The translations under genes and the position numbers were made by a program. From a virus (lineage: Duplodnaviria > Heunggongvirae > Uroviricota > Caudoviricetes): a DNA stretch of 64,000 nt. The stretch covers positions 1-64,000 of the IMG/VR virus record IMGVR_UViG_3300027996_000012. The stretch is one strand, 5' to 3'. The notes beneath the pieces are model-generated. The model saw only the letters and a list, made by a program, of their open reading frames with translations. It was not told the origin of the DNA and searched no databases. Shown here in pieces: positions 35,115 through 38,980 of this stretch; the first letter of the stretch is position 1; each line of letters starts with the position of its first letter.

Positions 35115-35143
35115 TTGACTTCCGAAACAAAGTATGGTAGAAT
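35115..35143 (+). promoter_or_regulatory. sigma70-like promoter (TTGACT-17-TAGAAT) directed into the ncRNA cluster
   Basis: Near-consensus -35 and -10 hexamers with 17-nt spacing, and no CDS downstream for ~700 bp. Confidence 0.5.
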
Positions 35144-35222
35144 TGAATAGTTAAGTGAAGAGCTTCATCAAACGTTACACTTACCTGAAGGAGAGCGTCG
35201 TGAAGTGATCACCGAAGAGTCG

Positions 35223-35437
35223 TGCGAGCCGATTAGCCAAGGGTTATCCAATTAAGATTTCCCCCTTGGCCAACCAACTTGTTCGCACAAGTTTACAGAG
35301 GTACACGCGAGCCGCTAGCTGAGGGTTATCTTTAGGAGATCATGACCTCGGCAAACAACTTGCTCGCATGTTACAAGCGGGCCGCTGGTTTACGGTTATC
35401 GAGCACATGAAAACCCGTTCACCGCAAACTTGCCCGC
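35223..35437 (+). repeat. three tandem ~61-84 nt structured repeat units (candidate small RNAs)
   Basis: Units at 35223-35287, 35307-35367 and 35377-35437. They share a 5' box GCGAGCCGNTAGC...GGGTTATC and a 3' box CAAACAACTTGCTCGCA. Terminal 6-7 bp stems GCGAGC/GCTCGC enclose an inner hairpin. Confidence 0.5.
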
Positions 35438-35441
35438 ACAT

Positions 35442-35487
35442 GAGCACTGATGGTCAACCGTTGAGGGTTCGAGTCCCTCGGTGCTCC
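35442..35487 (+). ncRNA. tRNA-like minihelix (acceptor stem plus T-arm only)
   Basis: GAGCACT-14 nt-GAGGGTTCGAGTCCCTC-GGTGCTC: a 7-bp acceptor-like stem and a perfect T-arm, with no D-arm or anticodon arm. Confidence 0.45.
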
Positions 35488-35498
35488 TTGACTTTGAG

Positions 35499-35560
35499 CC
35501 GTAGGATATGGGTTATCAAAGGAACTGGATGTCGGTGGTTCGATTCCTCCTCTCACGCCC
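35499..35560 (+). ncRNA. truncated tRNA-like element with an encoded CCA
   Basis: CGTAGGA ... GGTGGTTCGATTCCTCC TCTCACG C CCA. The acceptor pairs 6 of 7, a T-arm is present, and the core is too short for both D- and anticodon arms. It begins with the same 5' box as the upstream repeats. Confidence 0.4.
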
Positions 35561-35561
35561 A

Positions 35562-35790: not shown

Positions 35791-35858
35791 GAAGCATGAA
35801 ACCCCCACTCCTACCTCTTTGCTCGTAGCCGTGCTACATTTTGAACCCGGAGACAAGT

Positions 35859-36569
35859 ATGCCAGAAGACAGTGGACACCCATCCTGGGATACCATCCTG
35901 GGTCACATTGCTGGAGGTGAATTGAACACCGCTCTTGCTGCCAATGACTGGGCTATTCGGAACCGTGTCACTGGTATGGAGTACATGCAACGTTGGGTGA
36001 AGTATGTCATACAAGGGCTGAGGGTGCCCTATTTGTTTCTGTGGGGGCCGCAGTCGAGCGGTAAGTCAATTCTCGGGGATGCTTTGGAAGTTCTGCTTGG
36101 CCACGATGCAGTGGTGTTTGGCAACCAGATAGTTTGCCGCAAACTAGGTAAGTTCAATTCTGAGCTTATGAACGCCAGATTGGTGCGATTCGAGGAATGT
36201 GAGTTTGATCGTGACACTTACTATAGGGTCGTGGCCCCATTGATTCATGACGATACGATTGTCATCCACAAGATGGGCCGGGAACCTATTACCATCCAGA
36301 ACCAACTGAATTTTGTTCACATGCACAATCATCGCAATGCGTGTCCCACGTTGGTGGGTGACGAGCATCTGATGGCTCTGTATGTGACCATGCTTGGTGA
36401 AGGGGCAGAGATCGTGAAACCCGACTTGCTGGATCGGCTCCGTGGTGAGAAGGACTCGTTCCTAGCTACCTTAGATAGACTTCCAGGTGACATCGTCGAA
36501 GGGGAGTTGGCATTGCCACCGATCACGACACCTGGCCTGATACAAGCCTTTGAAGACAACAGTGGGTGA
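35859..36569 (+). CDS. stand-alone SF3-helicase-like P-loop NTPase, paralogous to the C-terminal domain of the primase-helicase
   Basis: YLFLWGPQSSGKSILGDALEVLLGHDAVVFGNQ...FNSELMNARLVRFEEC is near-identical in pattern to YLFLWGPQNSGKSILGDAIELLVTKNAVMTANQ...FNSELATTIFARLEEV in the 22511-25278 gene. ATG at 35859 follows a GGAG. Confidence 0.7.
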   Translation: MPEDSGHPSWDTILGHIAGGELNTALAANDWAIRNRVTGMEYMQRWVKYVIQGLRVPYLFLWGPQSSGKSILGDALEVLLGHDAVVFGNQIVCRKLGKFNSELMNARLVRFEECEFDRDTYYRVVAPLIHDDTIVIHKMGREPITIQNQLNFVHMHNHRNACPTLVGDEHLMALYVTMLGEGAEIVKPDLLDRLRGEKDSFLATLDRLPGDIVEGELALPPITTPGLIQAFEDNSG

Positions 36570-36705
36570 GGGTGTTCGGCTCGGAGTTTCGGTATACGGG
36601 TCGGCAGAGTGGGAAGATTAACTGAAGGGCGTGCTGAGTAGCGGAGATATCACCGGCGTCAGCGAAAAGCGCAGTAACCTACTGTTATGAACACTGGAGA
36701 GACCG

Positions 36706-37092
36706 ATGAAGAATGTAGCGATTTGGATTCTTTGCATCGCGGTATTCGCCACGAGTGGAACTATCTGGTCCATCGAGTGGCGAGTTGGTGTCTGTGATCA
36801 GTTGCTTGATATCAGGCAAGAGGAAATCTACCGCCTGGAAGATGTCGTTGACATGCAGGCCGAGGTGGTCCAAAGCCAAATCGACGAGATTGACGAGCTT
36901 CAAACAATACTGGACAACAACGAGATTTGCCGCGACAGGATGGTCTCTGCATGGCATGTTCGTGAATTGGAACTTCTGGCCGAGATCAAGAGTCTGCGGG
37001 CAACCATTCTTCCGGTAGACCCGCCCGATGGAATCAATCCACCGGATGCCCCTATCTTATTTCAAACAGAGGAAGTCTCCTATGCCAACTGA
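36706..37092 (+). CDS. membrane-anchored coiled-coil protein (128 aa)
   Basis: An N-terminal TM segment (IWILCIAVFATSGTIW) is followed by a coiled coil and a Pro-rich C-terminus. Confidence 0.55.
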   Translation: MKNVAIWILCIAVFATSGTIWSIEWRVGVCDQLLDIRQEEIYRLEDVVDMQAEVVQSQIDEIDELQTILDNNEICRDRMVSAWHVRELELLAEIKSLRATILPVDPPDGINPPDAPILFQTEEVSYAN

Positions 37093-37128
37093 AGACCCTG
37101 TCGCCAAGTAGCCATCAAACGAACTGAA

Positions 37129-37404
37129 GTGATGGATGTCGCCGATGCATTGATGGAAGAGCTTCTGGCTGCCAAAGCCAGATTGGAAGCTCAGCTTCCG
37201 ATTATCATACGAGCTATCGTTGATTTGTCTCCAAACGTTGATGGGTCGCCTACGAGCGATGATGTTCTGGCAGACATTTACAAACAACTGTCGGATGCGA
37301 ATGTCGATAGCGAACACGGCCACTTTTCTGACAATGTCCTGTGCTGTCTTTACGAACTTTGGATCGAGCAGGACCGAATTCCTCAAGGAGAAGACGATGA
37401 ATAG
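37129..37404 (+). CDS. hypothetical acidic protein (91 aa)
   Basis: ORF whose 3' end overlaps the rsr start. Confidence 0.5.
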   Translation: MMDVADALMEELLAAKARLEAQLPIIIRAIVDLSPNVDGSPTSDDVLADIYKQLSDANVDSEHGHFSDNVLCCLYELWIEQDRIPQGEDDE

Positions 37405-38980
37405 GTACGCACGCACACTTTCGCCAAGTAACACTCCTCAGACGCGCCCCTTGGTCGGTAGTAACCAAGTCGCCAACAGCGGCGGTGGCTTTGGTTGGGA
37501 AGTTGATTGCTGGACACGCTTGGATCGGTTTCTGATTCTTGGGTGTGAAGGCGGAACCTATTATGCCGGTGAGCAGAAGCTCACTATCGAAGCTGCTGAG
37601 TCTCTTCGCATCTGTGCTGCTGAGGATGCACAGCGAACCGTGGACCGCATTGTGCAGATCAGTGACGAAGGCCGGGCTGCAAAGAATGACCCTGCCATTT
37701 TCTGTTTGGCTATGTTGTGTGCCGATGCCCGCTACAGTAGCATTGCACTGCCGCGCCTTAGCGAAGTATGTCGAATCGGAACACACCTGTTCCAATTCGT
37801 GGATGCAGTGACTCAATTCCGTGGCTGGGGCCGTGCCTTGAAGCGTGCCGTCTCGAACTGGTATCTGAATCACCGACCTGATCGGCTGGCCGCTCAGATT
37901 ACGAAGTACAAGCAACGCGGTGGCTGGTCTCATCGTGACGTGCTTCGGTGTTGCCATGCACACACCAACAACGCCGAGATCAACCAGATCCTTGGGTACG
38001 CCGTGCGGAAGCCGGGTGGGGATTACCCGATGGTGACCAACCACACACTGGAAGGCGTCGAAAAGGTCAAGTTGGCTACCACCTCGAAAGAGGTTGCCGC
38101 CTTGGTTCGGAGCTACGGCTTGGTCCGTGAGAACATCCCGACTCAGTTCCTCAATGACCCAAGAGTCTGGGAAGCCATGCTTGAGTTGCGGATGCCTATG
38201 ACGGCTTTGATCCGGAATTTGGGTAAGATGACCAGCATCGACGTTCTGAAGCCCAACACCTCAGCAGTGAAGCAGGTATGTGCCCAGCTTCGGGACCGAG
38301 AGCAGCTTCAACGTGCTCGGGTACATCCATTCAGCGTGCTGCTGGCACTCTCCACCTATCAACAAGGTTGTGGTGTTCGTGGCAGTCTCCGTTGGAGCCC
38401 TGTAACCCAGGTGTTGGATTCCCTGGAAGACGCCTACGATGCATCCTTTGGGTACGTCGAGCCCACTGGTCAGCGTTATCTGCTGGGTGTGGATGTGTCT
38501 GGGTCCATGACCTATGGCACGATCAACAACACGCACTTGACGCCACGGGATGCTGCCGGGTGTATGGCTGCTACTTTGGTTCGATCTGAGGACCAAGTGC
38601 AGACCTATGGGTTCTGCAATACCTTCCACTCGTTGCCCGTTACCAAGCGAACATCGCTTTCTGAAGTGAATCGCATGATCACCGGCCTCCCATTTGGTCG
38701 CACAGACTGTTCACTTCCGATGAGGTACGCGACCCAGGAAAAGATTCCGACTGATGTGTTCGTGATCTACACGGACAGCGAGACCAACTGTAACAGCGTA
38801 CACCCTGCTGTAGCACTACAGGACTACCGCCGGAAGATGGGTATCAACGCCAAGTTGATTGTGGTGGCCTTCACCGCCAACGAGATCTCCATCGCGGACC
38901 CCAACGATGCAGGGATGCTCGATGTCGTTGGCTTCGATGCCAGTGCCCCGAAGATCATGGCTGACTTTGCCCGCGAATGA
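37397..38980 (+). CDS. rsr: Ro60 orthologue (Rsr) with TROVE and vWA domains
   Basis: The TROVE-like N-terminus WEVDCWTRLDRFLILGCEGGTYYAGEQKLT is followed by a vWA MIDAS motif LLGVDVSGSMTYG. The 527 aa length matches Ro60. ATG at 37397 follows AAGGAGAAGACG. Confidence 0.75.
   Translation: MNRYARTLSPSNTPQTRPLVGSNQVANSGGGFGWEVDCWTRLDRFLILGCEGGTYYAGEQKLTIEAAESLRICAAEDAQRTVDRIVQISDEGRAAKNDPAIFCLAMLCADARYSSIALPRLSEVCRIGTHLFQFVDAVTQFRGWGRALKRAVSNWYLNHRPDRLAAQITKYKQRGGWSHRDVLRCCHAHTNNAEINQILGYAVRKPGGDYPMVTNHTLEGVEKVKLATTSKEVAALVRSYGLVRENIPTQFLNDPRVWEAMLELRMPMTALIRNLGKMTSIDVLKPNTSAVKQVCAQLRDREQLQRARVHPFSVLLALSTYQQGCGVRGSLRWSPVTQVLDSLEDAYDASFGYVEPTGQRYLLGVDVSGSMTYGTINNTHLTPRDAAGCMAATLVRSEDQVQTYGFCNTFHSLPVTKRTSLSEVNRMITGLPFGRTDCSLPMRYATQEKIPTDVFVIYTDSETNCNSVHPAVALQDYRRKMGINAKLIVVAFTANEISIADPNDAGMLDVVGFDASAPKIMADFARE

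What the first reader, a model, noticed from the sequence alone, without database searches (positions are those of the whole stretch)
35115..38980. Phage-encoded Ro60 (Rsr) orthologue with an upstream promoter-driven cluster of Y-RNA-like / tRNA-mimic ncRNAs
The ORF at 37397-38980 has the Ro60 architecture. It carries the TROVE signature WEVDCWTRLDRF..GCEGGTYYAG and a vWA MIDAS motif DVSGSM, and it is 527 aa long.

Bacterial and mycobacteriophage Rsr proteins are encoded next to Y RNAs. One class of these, YrlA, folds into a tRNA-like module with D- and T-arms but no anticodon arm. About 1.6 kb upstream, a near-consensus promoter (35115-35143) points into a 650-bp stretch with no coding potential. 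That stretch contains three units with conserved 5' and 3' boxes that close into terminal stems, an acceptor plus T-arm minihelix, a truncated tRNA-like element ending in CCA, and a ~230-nt RNA. The last begins with a perfect tRNA acceptor and D-arm and ends with a perfect T-arm, but cannot form a cloverleaf.

This is the expected signature of a Ro60/Y-RNA ribonucleoprotein locus carried by a phage, possibly with several Y-RNA paralogues.
Basis: partly seen in the sequence, partly recalled or inferred. Interest (0 to 1): 0.85.

Follow-up and report, generated by a model that had tools for sequence, protein, structure and literature searches.

The report
Phage Ro60 operon with five Y RNAs
A large uncultured phage carries one operon that starts with five small Y RNAs, two of them shaped partly like tRNA, and ends with the Ro60 protein that binds such RNAs; this kind of system is already known in bacteria and phages, and this copy is unusually rich and cleanly organised.

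Summary

**Protein.** ORF 37397-38980 is a Ro60 orthologue with TROVE and Ro60-type vWA domains. It matches Xenopus Ro60 at E 1e-122.

**RNA array.** A sigma-70-like promoter (35115-35143) opens a gene-free stretch of about 700 nt. This stretch holds five paralogous Y-RNA units, not three:
- Three minimal hairpins of about 65 nt: 35222-35289, 35305-35369 and 35375-35440.
- Two YrlA-type RNAs of about 135 nt: 35489-35629 and 35697-35827.

In the two longer units a T-arm, a closed acceptor-like stem and a D-arm sit on top of the Ro-binding stem.

An acceptor plus T-arm minihelix and a 14-bp hairpin lie between units. Three ORFs, Ro60 and an intrinsic terminator (39009-39051) complete the operon.

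**Comparative support.** A covariance model built from the minimal units finds 129 hits near Ro60 genes in 80 viral contigs. All 129 are on the Ro60 strand, and covariation is strong. Orthologues in two other contigs support both tRNA-like units.

**What is missing.** No window unit reaches an Rfam gathering score; the best is YrlA at 29.3 bits against a cut-off of 69. Expression, processing and Ro60 binding are all inferred.

**Verdict.** This is a new member of a known kind, of moderate interest.

The parts
35115..35143 (+). Sigma-70-like promoter TTGACT-17-TAGAAT with extended -10 TG. The transcription start is predicted near 35150.
   Evidence: scores it 10 of 12 with TG. Similarly placed TTGACA-17-TAnnnT promoters with TG precede the arrays in L086, L001 and L002. 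Function is inferred.
35150..35221 (+). Leader of about 70 nt with no convincing structure.
   Evidence: Fold z-score is -1.28.
35222..35289 (+). Y RNA unit 1, a minimal stem-bulge-stem Y RNA. The lower stem is GUGCGAGC/GUUCGCAC with a bulged C and G:U. The upper stem is GCCAAGGG/CCCUUGGC. The loop starts with UUAUC.
   Evidence: R1 scores 63.4 bits. Fold is -25.3 kcal/mol, z -5.1. The orthologue is L086 2181-2243.
35305..35369 (+). Y RNA unit 2, minimal type.
   Evidence: R1 scores 61.7 bits. Fold z is -2.5. The 5' box is at 35311-35330.
35375..35440 (+). Y RNA unit 3, minimal type.
   Evidence: R1 scores 56.8 bits. The 5' box is at 35381-35400.
35442..35486 (+). tRNA-like minihelix. A 7-bp acceptor stem (35442-35448 with 35480-35486) abuts a perfect T-arm (35463-35479, loop UUCGAGU). 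A 14-nt connector replaces the D and anticodon arms. It is a candidate RNase P/Z punctuation site.
   Evidence: Sequence and fold are (z -3.1). There is a weak mascRNA-like hit of 20.6 bits. In L086 a plain 13-bp hairpin with the same outer stem sits at this position. The processing role is inferred.
35489..35629 (+). Y RNA unit 4, YrlA type. Its parts are an 11-bp lower stem with a bulged C; a 9-bp upper stem ending in GGGUUAUC; a closing stem CUGG/CCAG; a T-arm (35534-35550, with one U-U mismatch); a 7-8 bp acceptor-like stem closed by a CCA triloop (35551-35569); and the D-arm UAGCUCAGUAGGUAGAGC (35570-35587).
   Evidence: Rfam YrlA scores 29.3 bits, E 1e-3, below GA 69. The proposed structure is -45.9 against an MFE of -49.4 kcal/mol. 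Orthologue L086 2276-2418 shows 9 of 31 predicted pairs with changes on both sides.
35638..35683 (+). Spacer hairpin with a perfect 14-bp stem and an inner GAAA-capped 3-bp stem. It has no U-tract. Its role is unknown; a processing site is possible.
   Evidence: Fold is -24.7 kcal/mol, z -3.05. No homologue was examined.
35697..35827 (+). Y RNA unit 5, YrlA type with an extra arm. Its parts are the lower stem UACGAGC/GCUCGUA with a bulged C; the upper stem GGAGUGG/CCACUCC; a variable-arm-like hairpin with loop CUUGAAA (35720-35734); a perfect T-arm (35740-35756); a 10-bp acceptor-like stem with a U-U mismatch and a CUA loop (35757-35779); and a D-arm-like hairpin (35782-35797).
   Evidence: The MFE fold itself gives all four hairpins. 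There is a partial tRNA CM hit of 22.9 bits. L008 3850-3984 has the same architecture, the same CUUGAAA loop with a covarying stem, and 11 of 33 predicted pairs changed on both sides.
35859..36569 (+). ORF of 236 aa, a stand-alone P-loop ATPase domain of the primase/helicase type (DUF5906).
   Evidence: Pfam PF19263 at 7.7e-11. PHROG 1156 'DNA primase' at 1.3e-15. It is conserved at the same position only in L086, at 32% identity.
36706..37092 (+). ORF of 128 aa with no family match.
37132..37404 (+). ORF of 90 aa with no family match. It overlaps the Ro60 start by 8 nt.
   Evidence: There is a weak match in L086.
37397..38980 (+). Ro60/Rsr orthologue of 527 aa, with a TROVE domain and a Ro60-type vWA domain carrying the MIDAS motif DVSGSM.
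   Evidence: It is at most 43% identical to the 362 GenBank phage records that match.
39009..39051 (+). Intrinsic terminator closing the operon. It has an 11-bp G+C-rich stem, a 13-nt loop, then UCUUUUUU. The next promoter follows at 39059-39087.
   Evidence: Sequence is. Fold is -19.2 kcal/mol, z -5.95.

Best explanation
Region 35115-39051 is a single operon of a large phage that encodes a Ro60-Y RNA ribonucleoprotein system.

**Transcription and layout.** Transcription from the sigma-70-like promoter yields a polycistronic RNA. Its first ~700 nt hold five tandem Y-RNA paralogues. Three ORFs and Ro60 follow.

**Proposed processing.** Host RNases cut the array into individual RNAs. RNase P and RNase Z probably act at the acceptor/T-arm minihelix. 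RNase P may also cut at the 7-8 bp acceptor of unit 4, whose closing loop is CCA. Other endonucleases would act at the 14-bp hairpin. 3' exonucleases would stop at the terminal stems.

**Proposed assembly.** The phage Ro60 ring binds the shared lower helix of each unit: 5' GAGC-C-G, 3' UUG-YUC, with C:G, a bulged C, then G:U.

**Proposed function.** The distal modules differ between units: three simple loops that begin with UUAUC, and two different tRNA-like domains. These would act as alternative adaptors that tether Ro60 to different partners. By analogy with characterised systems, a likely partner is host PNPase, giving a RYPER-like degradation machine. tRNA-recognising enzymes are another option. 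The result would be a re-programming of host RNA decay, quality control or repair during infection.

**Shown.** The Ro60 protein identity; the sequence boxes; the predicted structures; their strand-specific co-occurrence with Ro60; and covariation in relatives.

**Inferred.** Promoter use, co-transcription, processing sites, Ro60 binding, the partners and the benefit to the phage.
For: **Ro60 identity.**

**Operon boundaries.** The promoter is and the terminator. No terminator-like site or called gene lies in the array.

**Units in the window.** Five units share the box GCCG-N6-14-GRTTATC. This box occurs only here in 64 kb, against 0.35 expected.

**Viral contigs sampled by Ro60.**
- Model R1, built from the minimal units, gives 129 hits at E<=1 and 99 at E<0.01 in 51 of 80 loci. 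Every hit is on the Ro60 strand.
- On their alignment, 93.7% of cells pair against 33-48% when partners are slid. All 15 pairs change on both sides. The covariation score is 0.762 against about 0.1.

**Bacterial genomes.** The same RNA class flanks Ro60 genes there, with 69 hits, 67 on the Ro60 strand.

**Sampling by motif first.** All 26 motif-bearing stretches that contain Ro60 have the motif on the Ro60 strand. Of 17 stretches with two or more motifs, 15 contain Ro60.

**tRNA-like units.**
- Unit 4 is the best Rfam match to YrlA in the region. It has an orthologue with compensatory changes in the syntenic contig L086, whose Ro60 is 71% identical.
- Unit 5 has a structural twin in L008.

**Published precedent.**
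- Y RNAs lie within 4 kb of rsr on the same strand; Yrn2-tRNAAsp-Yrn1 is polycistronic; YrlA and YrlB come from one precursor; M. smegmatis YrlA, with a 7-bp acceptor, is cut by RNase P and gains CCA (PMC4201824).
- Thermus phage phiLo Ro60 binds two upstream Y-like RNAs and forms a complex with host PNPase (PMC12135203).
Against: - No unit reaches the gathering score of any Rfam family. YrlA scores 29.3 against 69. RF00019 (Y_RNA) and RF01656 (sbRNA) give no hit at all on the window units, even at E<=10 on 246 nt.
- The published bacterial motif GNCGAAN0-1G is only partly present. The window has GCCG followed by AU, CU, CU, UA and AU, where the family consensus is GGGCCGAAG.
- The T-stem of unit 4 has a U-U mismatch. 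Its tRNA-like fold is 3.5 kcal/mol above the MFE.
- Covariation for units 4 and 5 rests on a single orthologue each.
- The R1 alignment is fitted to the model, which inflates the pairing counts.
- The array is separated from Ro60 by 1.6 kb and three ORFs. In most relatives the array directly abuts Ro60.
- There are no expression or binding data.
Confidence: 0.85

Rival explanations
1. The tRNA-like parts of the array act mainly on their own as tRNA mimics. These parts are the minihelix and the T/acceptor/D modules of units 4 and 5. They would serve as decoys or substrates for host tRNA-targeting nucleases, modification enzymes or CCA-adding enzyme. Ro60 would only stabilise them, or would be functionally separate.
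For: The window is rich in tRNA-related features:
- Four tRNAs, a tmRNA and an extra tRNA-like element at 29497-29565.
- A protein with a ValRS C-terminal tRNA-binding arm.
- An RNA ligase at 55967-57061.

Across the 80 viral Ro60 loci, 196 of 198 tRNAs and 99 of 102 orphan T-arms are on the Ro60 strand. Phage Ro60 therefore lives inside tRNA-type clusters.
Against: - The three minimal units have no tRNA-like part.
- Every tRNA-like module here is mounted on a stem that carries the conserved Ro-binding boxes.
- The boxes co-occur with Ro60 in strict strand-specific fashion.
Confidence: 0.08
2. The repeats act at the DNA level. They would be iterons or origin-type binding sites for the neighbouring primase/helicase-like ATPase (DUF5906), not RNA genes.
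For: Direct repeats of 22-29 nt are spaced 70-117 nt apart, immediately upstream of a gene with a primase/helicase P-loop domain. The same gene follows the array in L086.
Against: - The repeats come as complementary 5'/3' box pairs with compensatory changes. They include G:U pairs, which are meaningful only in RNA.
- Orientation relative to Ro60 is constant in all 129 hits.
- The DUF5906 gene is absent from every other array-bearing locus examined.
Confidence: 0.03
3. The stretch is a decayed tRNA gene cluster. It would consist of pseudo-tRNAs and fragments with no present function.
For: T-arms, a D-arm and acceptor-like stems are present without a cloverleaf. ARAGORN and the tRNA model call nothing. 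Real tRNA genes lie nearby, with tRNA-Glu at 34425.
Against: - The region is 100% identical in three independent assemblies.
- The permuted T-acceptor-D order is conserved, with compensatory substitutions, in contigs whose Ro60 is only 49-71% identical.
- The non-tRNA boxes GAGCCG, GGGUUAUC and ACUUG are the most conserved parts.
Confidence: 0.03

Closest known systems
Bacterial and mycobacteriophage Rsr-YrlA/YrlB loci (Chen et al. 2014, RNA 20:1715, PMC4201824; Rfam RF02553)
   Same: - Ro60 has Y RNAs on the same strand within 4 kb.
- At least one Y RNA carries a T-arm, closed acceptor and D-arm module on a Ro-binding stem, as units 4 and 5 do.
- At least one Y RNA is a plain long hairpin, as units 1-3 are.
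- The RNAs are made from one precursor.
- A 7-bp acceptor is cleavable by RNase P, followed by CCA addition, in M. smegmatis.
   Different: - There are five units rather than about two.
- No unit reaches the YrlA gathering score (29.3 against 69 bits).
- The AA of GNCGAA is not kept.
- Both strands of the Ro helix are recognisable. According to that paper, only the 5' strand is recognisable in the Salmonella and M. smegmatis RNAs.
- Unit 4 encodes CCA as the acceptor loop.
- Unit 5 has an extra variable-arm-like hairpin.
- Three ORFs separate the array from Ro60.
Deinococcus radiodurans rsr locus (Yrn2-tRNAAsp-Yrn1 polycistron; RYPER complex with PNPase)
   Same: - It is a polycistronic array of several Y RNAs punctuated by a tRNA-shaped element.
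- Both strands of the bulged Ro-binding helix are conserved.
- It supplies the functional model of Y RNA as a tether between Ro60 and an exoribonuclease.
   Different: - The punctuating element here is a minihelix without D or anticodon arms, not a real tRNA.
- The setting is a phage, not a cell.
- No PNPase gene was seen in the window.
Thermus phage phiLo Ro60 with Yrl1 and Yrl2 (NAR 2025, PMC12135203)
   Same: - A phage-encoded Ro60 has stem-bulge-stem Y-like RNAs upstream of the gene.
- Binding and a ternary complex with host PNPase were shown in vitro, which makes the inferred mechanism plausible.
   Different: - That locus has two RNAs, found through a CGAA motif, and no tRNA-like domain is described.
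- The window has five RNAs, two of them with tRNA-like domains, and lacks the CGAA core.
- I made no sequence comparison with phiLo.
Metazoan Y RNAs and nematode stem-bulge RNAs (Rfam RF00019, RF01656; Kowalski and Krude 2015, PMC4726728)
   Same: - The same three blocks appear in the same order: a 5' GGUCCGA-like strand with a bulged C; GGGUUAUC at the top of the upper stem with UUAUC opening the loop; and a 3' CAACUUG strand.
- Relatives of the window units in viral and bacterial Ro60 loci pass the gathering score of the sbRNA family RF01656. These comprise L001 at 44.6 bits, L014 at 38.1 bits, and 11 hits of 38.3-43.5 bits in 15 bacterial loci.
   Different: - The window units themselves give no hit to RF01656 or RF00019.
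- They are shorter, at about 65 nt.
- They are transcribed from a bacterial-type promoter as an array.
- They have no 3' oligo-U/La site.

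Membership tests
Ro60 / Rsr (TROVE family) | TROVE (HEAT-repeat ring) domain | tested here: met
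   PF05731 at 3e-37, residues 26-318.
Ro60 / Rsr (TROVE family) | C-terminal Ro60-type vWA domain with MIDAS motif | tested here: met
   PF25045 at 3.6e-61, residues 360-525. DVSGSM is in the translation.
Ro60 / Rsr (TROVE family) | Full-length similarity to structurally characterised Ro60 proteins | tested here: met
   1yvp at 1e-122, 9nen at 1.7e-122 and 2nvo at 5.7e-115, each over almost the whole length.
Y RNA (Ro60-associated ncRNA, general) | Encoded close to Ro60 on the same strand (within 4 kb in Chen et al. 2014) | tested here: met
   The units lie at 35222-35827 and Ro60 starts at 37397, both on the + strand. In relatives, 129 of 129 (viral) and 67 of 69 (bacterial) model hits are on the Ro60 strand.
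Y RNA (Ro60-associated ncRNA, general) | 5' and 3' ends pair into a stem that contains a conserved helix with a bulged C | tested here: met
   The family alignment has the bulge column as C in 123 of 129 sequences, flanked by C:G/U:A and G:U pairs. Pairing is 93.7% and all 15 pairs covary.
Y RNA (Ro60-associated ncRNA, general) | 5'-strand motif GNCGAAN0-1G (bacterial) or GGUCCGA (metazoan) | tested here: inconclusive
   The window units read GCCGAU, GCCGCU, GCCGCU, GCCGUA and GCCGAU. GNCG is kept and AA is not. The family consensus in relatives is GGGCCGAAG.
Y RNA (Ro60-associated ncRNA, general) | Bound and stabilised by Ro60 | not testable with these tools
   This needs pull-down or EMSA.
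YrlA (Rfam RF02553) | Covariance-model score at or above the gathering score of 69 bits | tested here: not met
   Unit 4 scores 29.3 bits, E 1e-3 in 2.5 kb. Unit 5 gives no hit. No YrlA hit at gathering score appeared in 30 related loci either.
YrlA (Rfam RF02553) | tRNA-like module on top of the Ro-binding stem, in the order T-arm, closed acceptor-like stem, D-arm | tested here: met
   Unit 4 is shown. Unit 5 is shown. The architecture is conserved, with compensatory changes, in L086 and L008.
YrlA (Rfam RF02553) | tRNA-type modifications; recognition by RNase P or CCA-adding enzyme | not testable with these tools
   Only the prerequisites are visible: a 7-8 bp acceptor with a CCA loop in unit 4, and a 7-bp acceptor plus T-arm in the minihelix.
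Metazoan Y RNA / nematode sbRNA (RF00019, RF01656) | Covariance-model score at or above gathering | tested here: not met
   The window units give no hit, even at E<=10. Relatives in other loci pass RF01656.
Metazoan Y RNA / nematode sbRNA (RF00019, RF01656) | UUAUC motif opening the loop above a GGG/CCC-closed upper stem | tested here: met
   GRUUAUC is present in all five units. In the viral family alignment of 129 sequences the counts are UU 128, A 118, U 104 and C 123. The model was seeded with this motif, so these counts are biased upward.
tRNA genes | Cloverleaf with anticodon arm detected by ARAGORN or Rfam RF00005 at gathering | tested here: not met
   Nothing is called in 35100-35850. 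The best partial hit is 22.9 bits against 29.

The most novel reading that the evidence does not exclude
The minimal units belong to a widespread, uncatalogued prokaryotic and phage Y-RNA class. This class keeps all three sequence blocks of metazoan Y RNAs and nematode sbRNAs, including the UUAUC loop motif. In eukaryotes that motif is tied to DNA-replication initiation, not to Ro60 binding.

If this is real homology with a conserved function, the UUAUC/upper-stem module is an ancient part of the Ro60 RNP. Its partner could then be identified in a simple phage-bacterium system.

In this lineage the array sits directly in front of a primase/helicase-type ATPase gene. A replication-linked role is therefore not excluded.

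There is also a structural angle. Unit 4 has a CCA-closed acceptor. Relatives carry 'tRNA-framed' Y RNAs in the opposite circular permutation. Together these would indicate that YrlA-type RNAs arose from tandem tRNA-like genes.
Probability: 0.1. Interest if true: 0.8.

Novelty: new member of a known kind. Interest (0 to 1): 0.42.

Why it matters
**What is already established.** Ro60 is a conserved autoantigen, and its Y-RNA partners decide what it acts on. Phage-encoded Ro60 has been known since mycobacteriophage genomics. Y RNAs were predicted in 22 phages in 2014. One phage system has been studied biochemically. What the RNP does for a phage is still unknown.

**What this locus offers.** It is a compact test case: one promoter, one terminator and five differently equipped Y RNAs beside one Ro60. 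It could be cloned whole to ask three questions:
- Does each Y RNA recruit a different partner?
- Do tRNA-processing enzymes cut the array?
- What does the conserved UUAUC block bind?

**Wider context from the comparative work.**
- Multi-copy Y-RNA arrays are common near phage Ro60 genes, with up to 8 box matches per locus and about 13 units by eye in L067.
- The minimal class is not represented by its own Rfam family.

These points widen the picture but do not change the kind of system.

Tried and rejected
1. **Rfam at gathering thresholds on the whole window.** Nothing was found in the region.
2. **Rfam in E-value mode.** On 2.5 kb and on 246 nt, the only meaningful hit was sub-threshold YrlA. 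The miRNA and mascRNA hits are chance or reflect only the T-arm.
3. **Contigs that encode the identical Ro60 (L003-L005).** They are 100% identical across the array, so they carry no covariation information.
4. **A loose structural regex** (X6-CG ... YUW-rc(X6) plus a box). It gave 75 minus-strand against 282 plus-strand hits, which is too unspecific, so I dropped it.
5. **A covariance model for the tRNA-like module.** The MAFFT alignment of the four available domains was structurally wrong, so no model was built. Support for units 4 and 5 therefore rests on pairwise orthologues.
6. **Model R1 with filters off.** It does not capture units 4 and 5 because of their long inserts (7.4 bits).
7. 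**Motif-first scan of viral contigs.** A 16-base pattern is expected to give many chance single matches in a collection of this size (my estimate, not computed). Only the strand agreement and the multi-match loci are informative.
8. **A general link between DUF5906 and Ro60.** Rejected: the gene is shared only with L086.
Rejected: the acceptor 5' strand GCGUGGG has no complement after the distal T-arm, but it pairs perfectly with the strand just upstream of the CCA.
10. **Annual Review on bacterial Ro60 (PMC10870794).** It could not be read.
11. **Chen et al. supplementary tables.** They are not held. I therefore could not check how many phage loci with more than two Y RNAs were already listed.

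Full report
**What is there: the protein.**
The ORF at 37397-38980 (+) encodes a 527-aa protein. It matches the Ro60-type vWA domain (PF25045, 3.6e-61) and the TROVE domain (PF05731, 3e-37), and PHROG 850. Over its full length it matches the solved Ro60 structures of Xenopus (1yvp, 1e-122), human (9nen) and Deinococcus Rsr (2nvo, 6e-115). A tblastn search finds Ro-like genes in 362 GenBank phage records, mostly actinophages. None is more than 43% identical.

**Is it a phage?**
The window looks like part of a large phage:
- It has primase, helicase, ribonucleotide reductase, exonuclease, ThyX, dCMP deaminase and RNA ligase hits.
- It has giant lectin-domain ORFs, four tRNAs and a tmRNA.
- The same Ro60 lies on a 160-kb metagenomic contig.

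The phage assignment is likely, not proven.

**The non-coding stretch.**
A promoter-like site, TTGACT-17-TAGAAT with TG, lies at 35115-35143. Gene callers placed no gene between 35106 and 35858 on three public contigs.

Reading the sequence and the repeat table shows five units, not three. Each has:
- a 5' box (G/A)GAGCCG...G(G/A)UUAUC;
- a 3' box (A/C)(C/U)UUG followed by the complement of the first bases.

The pattern GCCG-N6-14-GRTTATC occurs five times in the 64-kb window. All five are here and on the + strand, against 0.35 expected.

In every unit the ends pair so that a C:G pair, an unpaired C and a G:U pair follow one another. This is the geometry of the Ro-binding helix of Y RNAs, as described in PMC4201824 and PMC12135203.

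**Units 1-3 (35222-35289, 35305-35369, 35375-35440).**
These are hairpins of about 65 nt. Each has a lower stem, an internal loop, and an upper stem closed by GGG/CCC, with a loop that opens with UUAUC.

**Unit 4 (35489-35629).**
This is a long stem topped by three elements:
- a T-arm;
- a 7-8 bp acceptor-like stem closed by the triloop CCA;
- the D-arm UAGCUCAGUAGGUAGAGC.

It gives the only notable Rfam match, to YrlA, at 29.3 bits and E 1e-3. That is well below the gathering score of 69. Its tRNA-like structure is 3.5 kcal/mol above the MFE.

**Unit 5 (35697-35827).**
Its MFE fold already shows four hairpins:
- a hairpin with loop CUUGAAA in the position of a tRNA variable arm;
- a perfect T-arm;
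- a 10-bp acceptor-like stem;
- a D-arm-like hairpin.

The circularly permuted order typical of YrlA explains why no cloverleaf can form.

**Elements between the units.**
- A minihelix lies at 35442-35486. It is a 7-bp acceptor stem stacked on a perfect T-arm, with no D or anticodon arm.
- A perfect 14-bp hairpin lies at 35638-35683.

**The rest of the operon.**
After the array come a DUF5906 P-loop ATPase ORF, two small ORFs and Ro60. A strong intrinsic terminator at 39009-39051 was missed by the scan because of its 13-nt loop. The next promoter follows at 39059. The simplest reading is one operon, 35115-39051.

**Comparative evidence: sampling by Ro60.**
Contigs with the identical Ro60 are 100% identical in the array and therefore uninformative.

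I built covariance model R1 from units 1-3 and four similar RNAs next to Ro60 in two viral contigs. I searched it against 80 IMG/VR loci chosen only for encoding a Ro60 relative.
- It found 129 matches at E<=1, and 99 at E<0.01 in 51 loci, with one to four per locus.
- Every match is on the Ro60 strand.
- On their alignment, 93.7% of cells pair, against 33-48% when partners are slid by 1-3 columns.
- All 15 pairs show changes on both sides.
- The covariation score is 0.762 against about 0.1.

The alignment is fitted to the model, so these counts lean towards the structure. The strand bias is independent of that.

**Comparative evidence: other samplings.**
- A looser 5'-box regex gives 173 hits on the Ro60 strand and 16 on the other. 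Per-locus counts run from 0 to 8, and 9 of 80 loci have five or more.
- L067 has about 13 units by eye in 1.5 kb. The window's five units are therefore at the high end but not unique.
- Sampling by motif first, 26 of 120 matched stretches contain Ro60, always on the motif's strand. Of 17 multi-match stretches, 15 contain Ro60.
- The same class flanks Ro60 in bacterial genomes and MAGs from Verrucomicrobiota, Planctomycetota, Chloroflexota, Armatimonadota and Myxococcota. There are 69 hits, 67 on the Ro60 strand.

**Orthologues of the tRNA-like units.**
L086 has a Ro60 that is 71% identical and is syntenic with the window. Its layout is: tRNA, promoter TTGACA-17-TAGACT, one minimal unit, a plain hairpin where the window has the minihelix, one unit-4 orthologue, the DUF5906 gene, then Ro60. 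Between unit 4 and its orthologue, 9 of 31 predicted pairs change on both sides. These include the lower, upper and closing stems.

L008 3850-3984 shares the whole architecture of unit 5. It has the identical CUUGAAA loop on a covarying stem and a mismatch at the same place in the acceptor-like stem. Of 33 predicted pairs, 11 change on both sides.

**How it most likely works.**
By analogy with characterised systems, the array would be cut into individual Y RNAs. The precedents are:
- one precursor giving YrlA and YrlB;
- the Yrn2-tRNAAsp-Yrn1 polycistron;
- phage phiLo Ro60 binding two upstream Y-like RNAs and recruiting host PNPase (PMC12135203).

Ro60 would bind the shared lower helix. The different distal modules would tether it to different partners. 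The minihelix and the acceptor of unit 4 are plausible RNase P sites. None of this is shown here. The evidence establishes RNA genes of the Y type beside Ro60, not their processing or function.

**Comparison with known families.**
- **Ro60:** all tested defining features are met.
- **Y RNA in the general sense:** position, strand and the bulged helix are met. The published GNCGAA motif is only half kept in the window, although the wider family consensus is GGGCCGAAG.
- **Rfam YrlA:** the architecture is met but the score is not. No YrlA hit at gathering score appears in 30 related loci either. This Ro60 clade therefore uses divergent tRNA-like Y RNAs.
- **Metazoan Y RNA and nematode sbRNA:** the window units give no hit. 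They do share the three blocks, namely the 5' strand, GGGUUAUC and CAACUUG. Thirteen relatives pass the gathering score of the sbRNA family RF01656.

[quoted passage not shown] They also tie UUAUC to DNA-replication activity in eukaryotes (PMC4726728). Chen et al. do not mention UUAUC. This resemblance is the most interesting loose end. R1 was seeded with the motif, however, so its apparent invariance is partly circular.

**Rivals.**
- **DNA iterons for the adjacent primase-like ATPase.** This is contradicted by G:U-containing compensatory pairs, by the fixed orientation to Ro60, and by the absence of DUF5906 from all other arrays.
- **A decayed tRNA cluster.** This is contradicted by conservation of the permuted modules and of the non-tRNA boxes.
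- **A Ro60-independent tRNA-decoy role for the tRNA-like parts.** This cannot be excluded and may coexist with the main explanation.

**Verdict.**
The finding is real and correctly interpreted in outline. It is a new member of a known kind: a Ro60-Y RNA locus in a phage. Its notable particulars are:
- five paralogues of three structural types in one operon;
- tRNA-like punctuation between units;
- a genome-encoded CCA loop in unit 4;
- metazoan-like sequence blocks.

Interest is moderate, at 0.42. Confidence in the main explanation is 0.85.

Noticed in passing
L008 3752-3850; L067 2641-2774, 2912-3056, 3295-3424; L020 3192-3315; L223 2637-2756, 3139-3262; L277 3123-3244, 3457-3579; L239 3391-3511, 3649-3770, 3815-3919: These are 'tRNA-framed Y RNAs'. 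They hit the tRNA model over its full length but are 105-145 nt long. In the ones I read (L008, L067), the anticodon arm is replaced by a closed Y-RNA helix with the boxes in swapped order: the 3' box CACUUG comes first, then the 5' box GAGCCGA...GUUAUC. This is the circular permutation of YrlA, with free ends at the acceptor stem. They lie in Y-RNA arrays next to Ro60 in viral and bacterial contigs. The window has none.
   Followed up: partly
L067 2480-3980 (IMGVR_UViG_3300031576_000038): About 13 Y-like units and tRNA-framed units are packed into 1.5 kb directly upstream of Ro60. This is far more than the two to four Y RNAs described for characterised loci.
   Followed up: partly
L244 5712-5777, L270 5716-5781, L223 3390-3459 and 2555-2626, L243 3488-3559, L233 1365-1434, L268 3423-3491, L290 3863-3931, L254 3763-3832, L228 3862-3930; L001 4931-4994; L014 3723-3796: Minimal Y RNAs beside prokaryotic and phage Ro60 genes score above the gathering threshold of the nematode stem-bulge RNA family RF01656 (38.1-44.6 bits, GA 38). 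No Rfam family of their own seems to exist for this class.
   Followed up: partly
80 IMG/VR Ro60 loci L006-L085: Phage Ro60 genes sit inside tRNA clusters. ARAGORN finds 198 tRNAs, 196 of them on the Ro60 strand. A further 99 perfect T-arms outside called tRNAs lie on that strand, against 3 on the other.
   Followed up: partly
window 62378-62727: The phage encodes a tmRNA (Rfam 124 bits). ARAGORN gives the tag peptide AKPLFATAA. tRNA-Thr follows at 63536-63611.
   Followed up: no
window 29497-29565: A tRNA-like element lies directly after tRNA-Met. It has an acceptor, D-arm and T-arm but only a 3-bp, 5-nt-loop 'anticodon' arm. ARAGORN and Rfam do not call it, and its fold z-score of -0.65 is not significant.
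   Followed up: partly
window 29570-30057 and 30048-30137: A small ORF matches the tRNA-binding coiled-coil arm of valyl-tRNA synthetase (PF10458, 1e-9). It ends inside an odd 90-nt tRNA-like gene that has a 23-nt insertion in the anticodon arm (tRNA model 36.1 bits). That gene has no Y-RNA boxes.
   Followed up: no
window 55967-57061; 44593-45120; 18855-19589: RNA-end-healing and repair-type genes lie elsewhere in the window. They are an RNA ligase (PF09414 plus the PHA02142 OB fold), a calcineurin-like phosphoesterase, and an RNase T-type exonuclease. Together with Ro60 they may form an RNA repair or turnover toolkit.
   Followed up: no
window 35638-35683: A perfect 14-bp hairpin with an inner GAAA-capped stem lies between Y units 4 and 5. 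It has no U-tract. Its 3' strand is also 83% complementary to the 5' strand of unit 4 (35490-35501). Its role is unexplained.
   Followed up: no
window 5768-12994: A 2408-aa ORF, with neighbours of 1127, 781, 955 and 540 aa, has almost no family matches. Only a Laminin_G_3 lectin domain is found. These are presumably virion or tail-fibre proteins.
   Followed up: no
L086 (SDBT01001728.1) 2071-2418: The closest relative, with Ro60 71% identical, has only two Y RNAs (one minimal, one YrlA-type) and a plain hairpin in place of the minihelix. The window lineage therefore seems to have expanded its array. It gained units 2 and 3, and also unit 5, whose closest structural match is in a more distant phage (L008).
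   Followed up: partly
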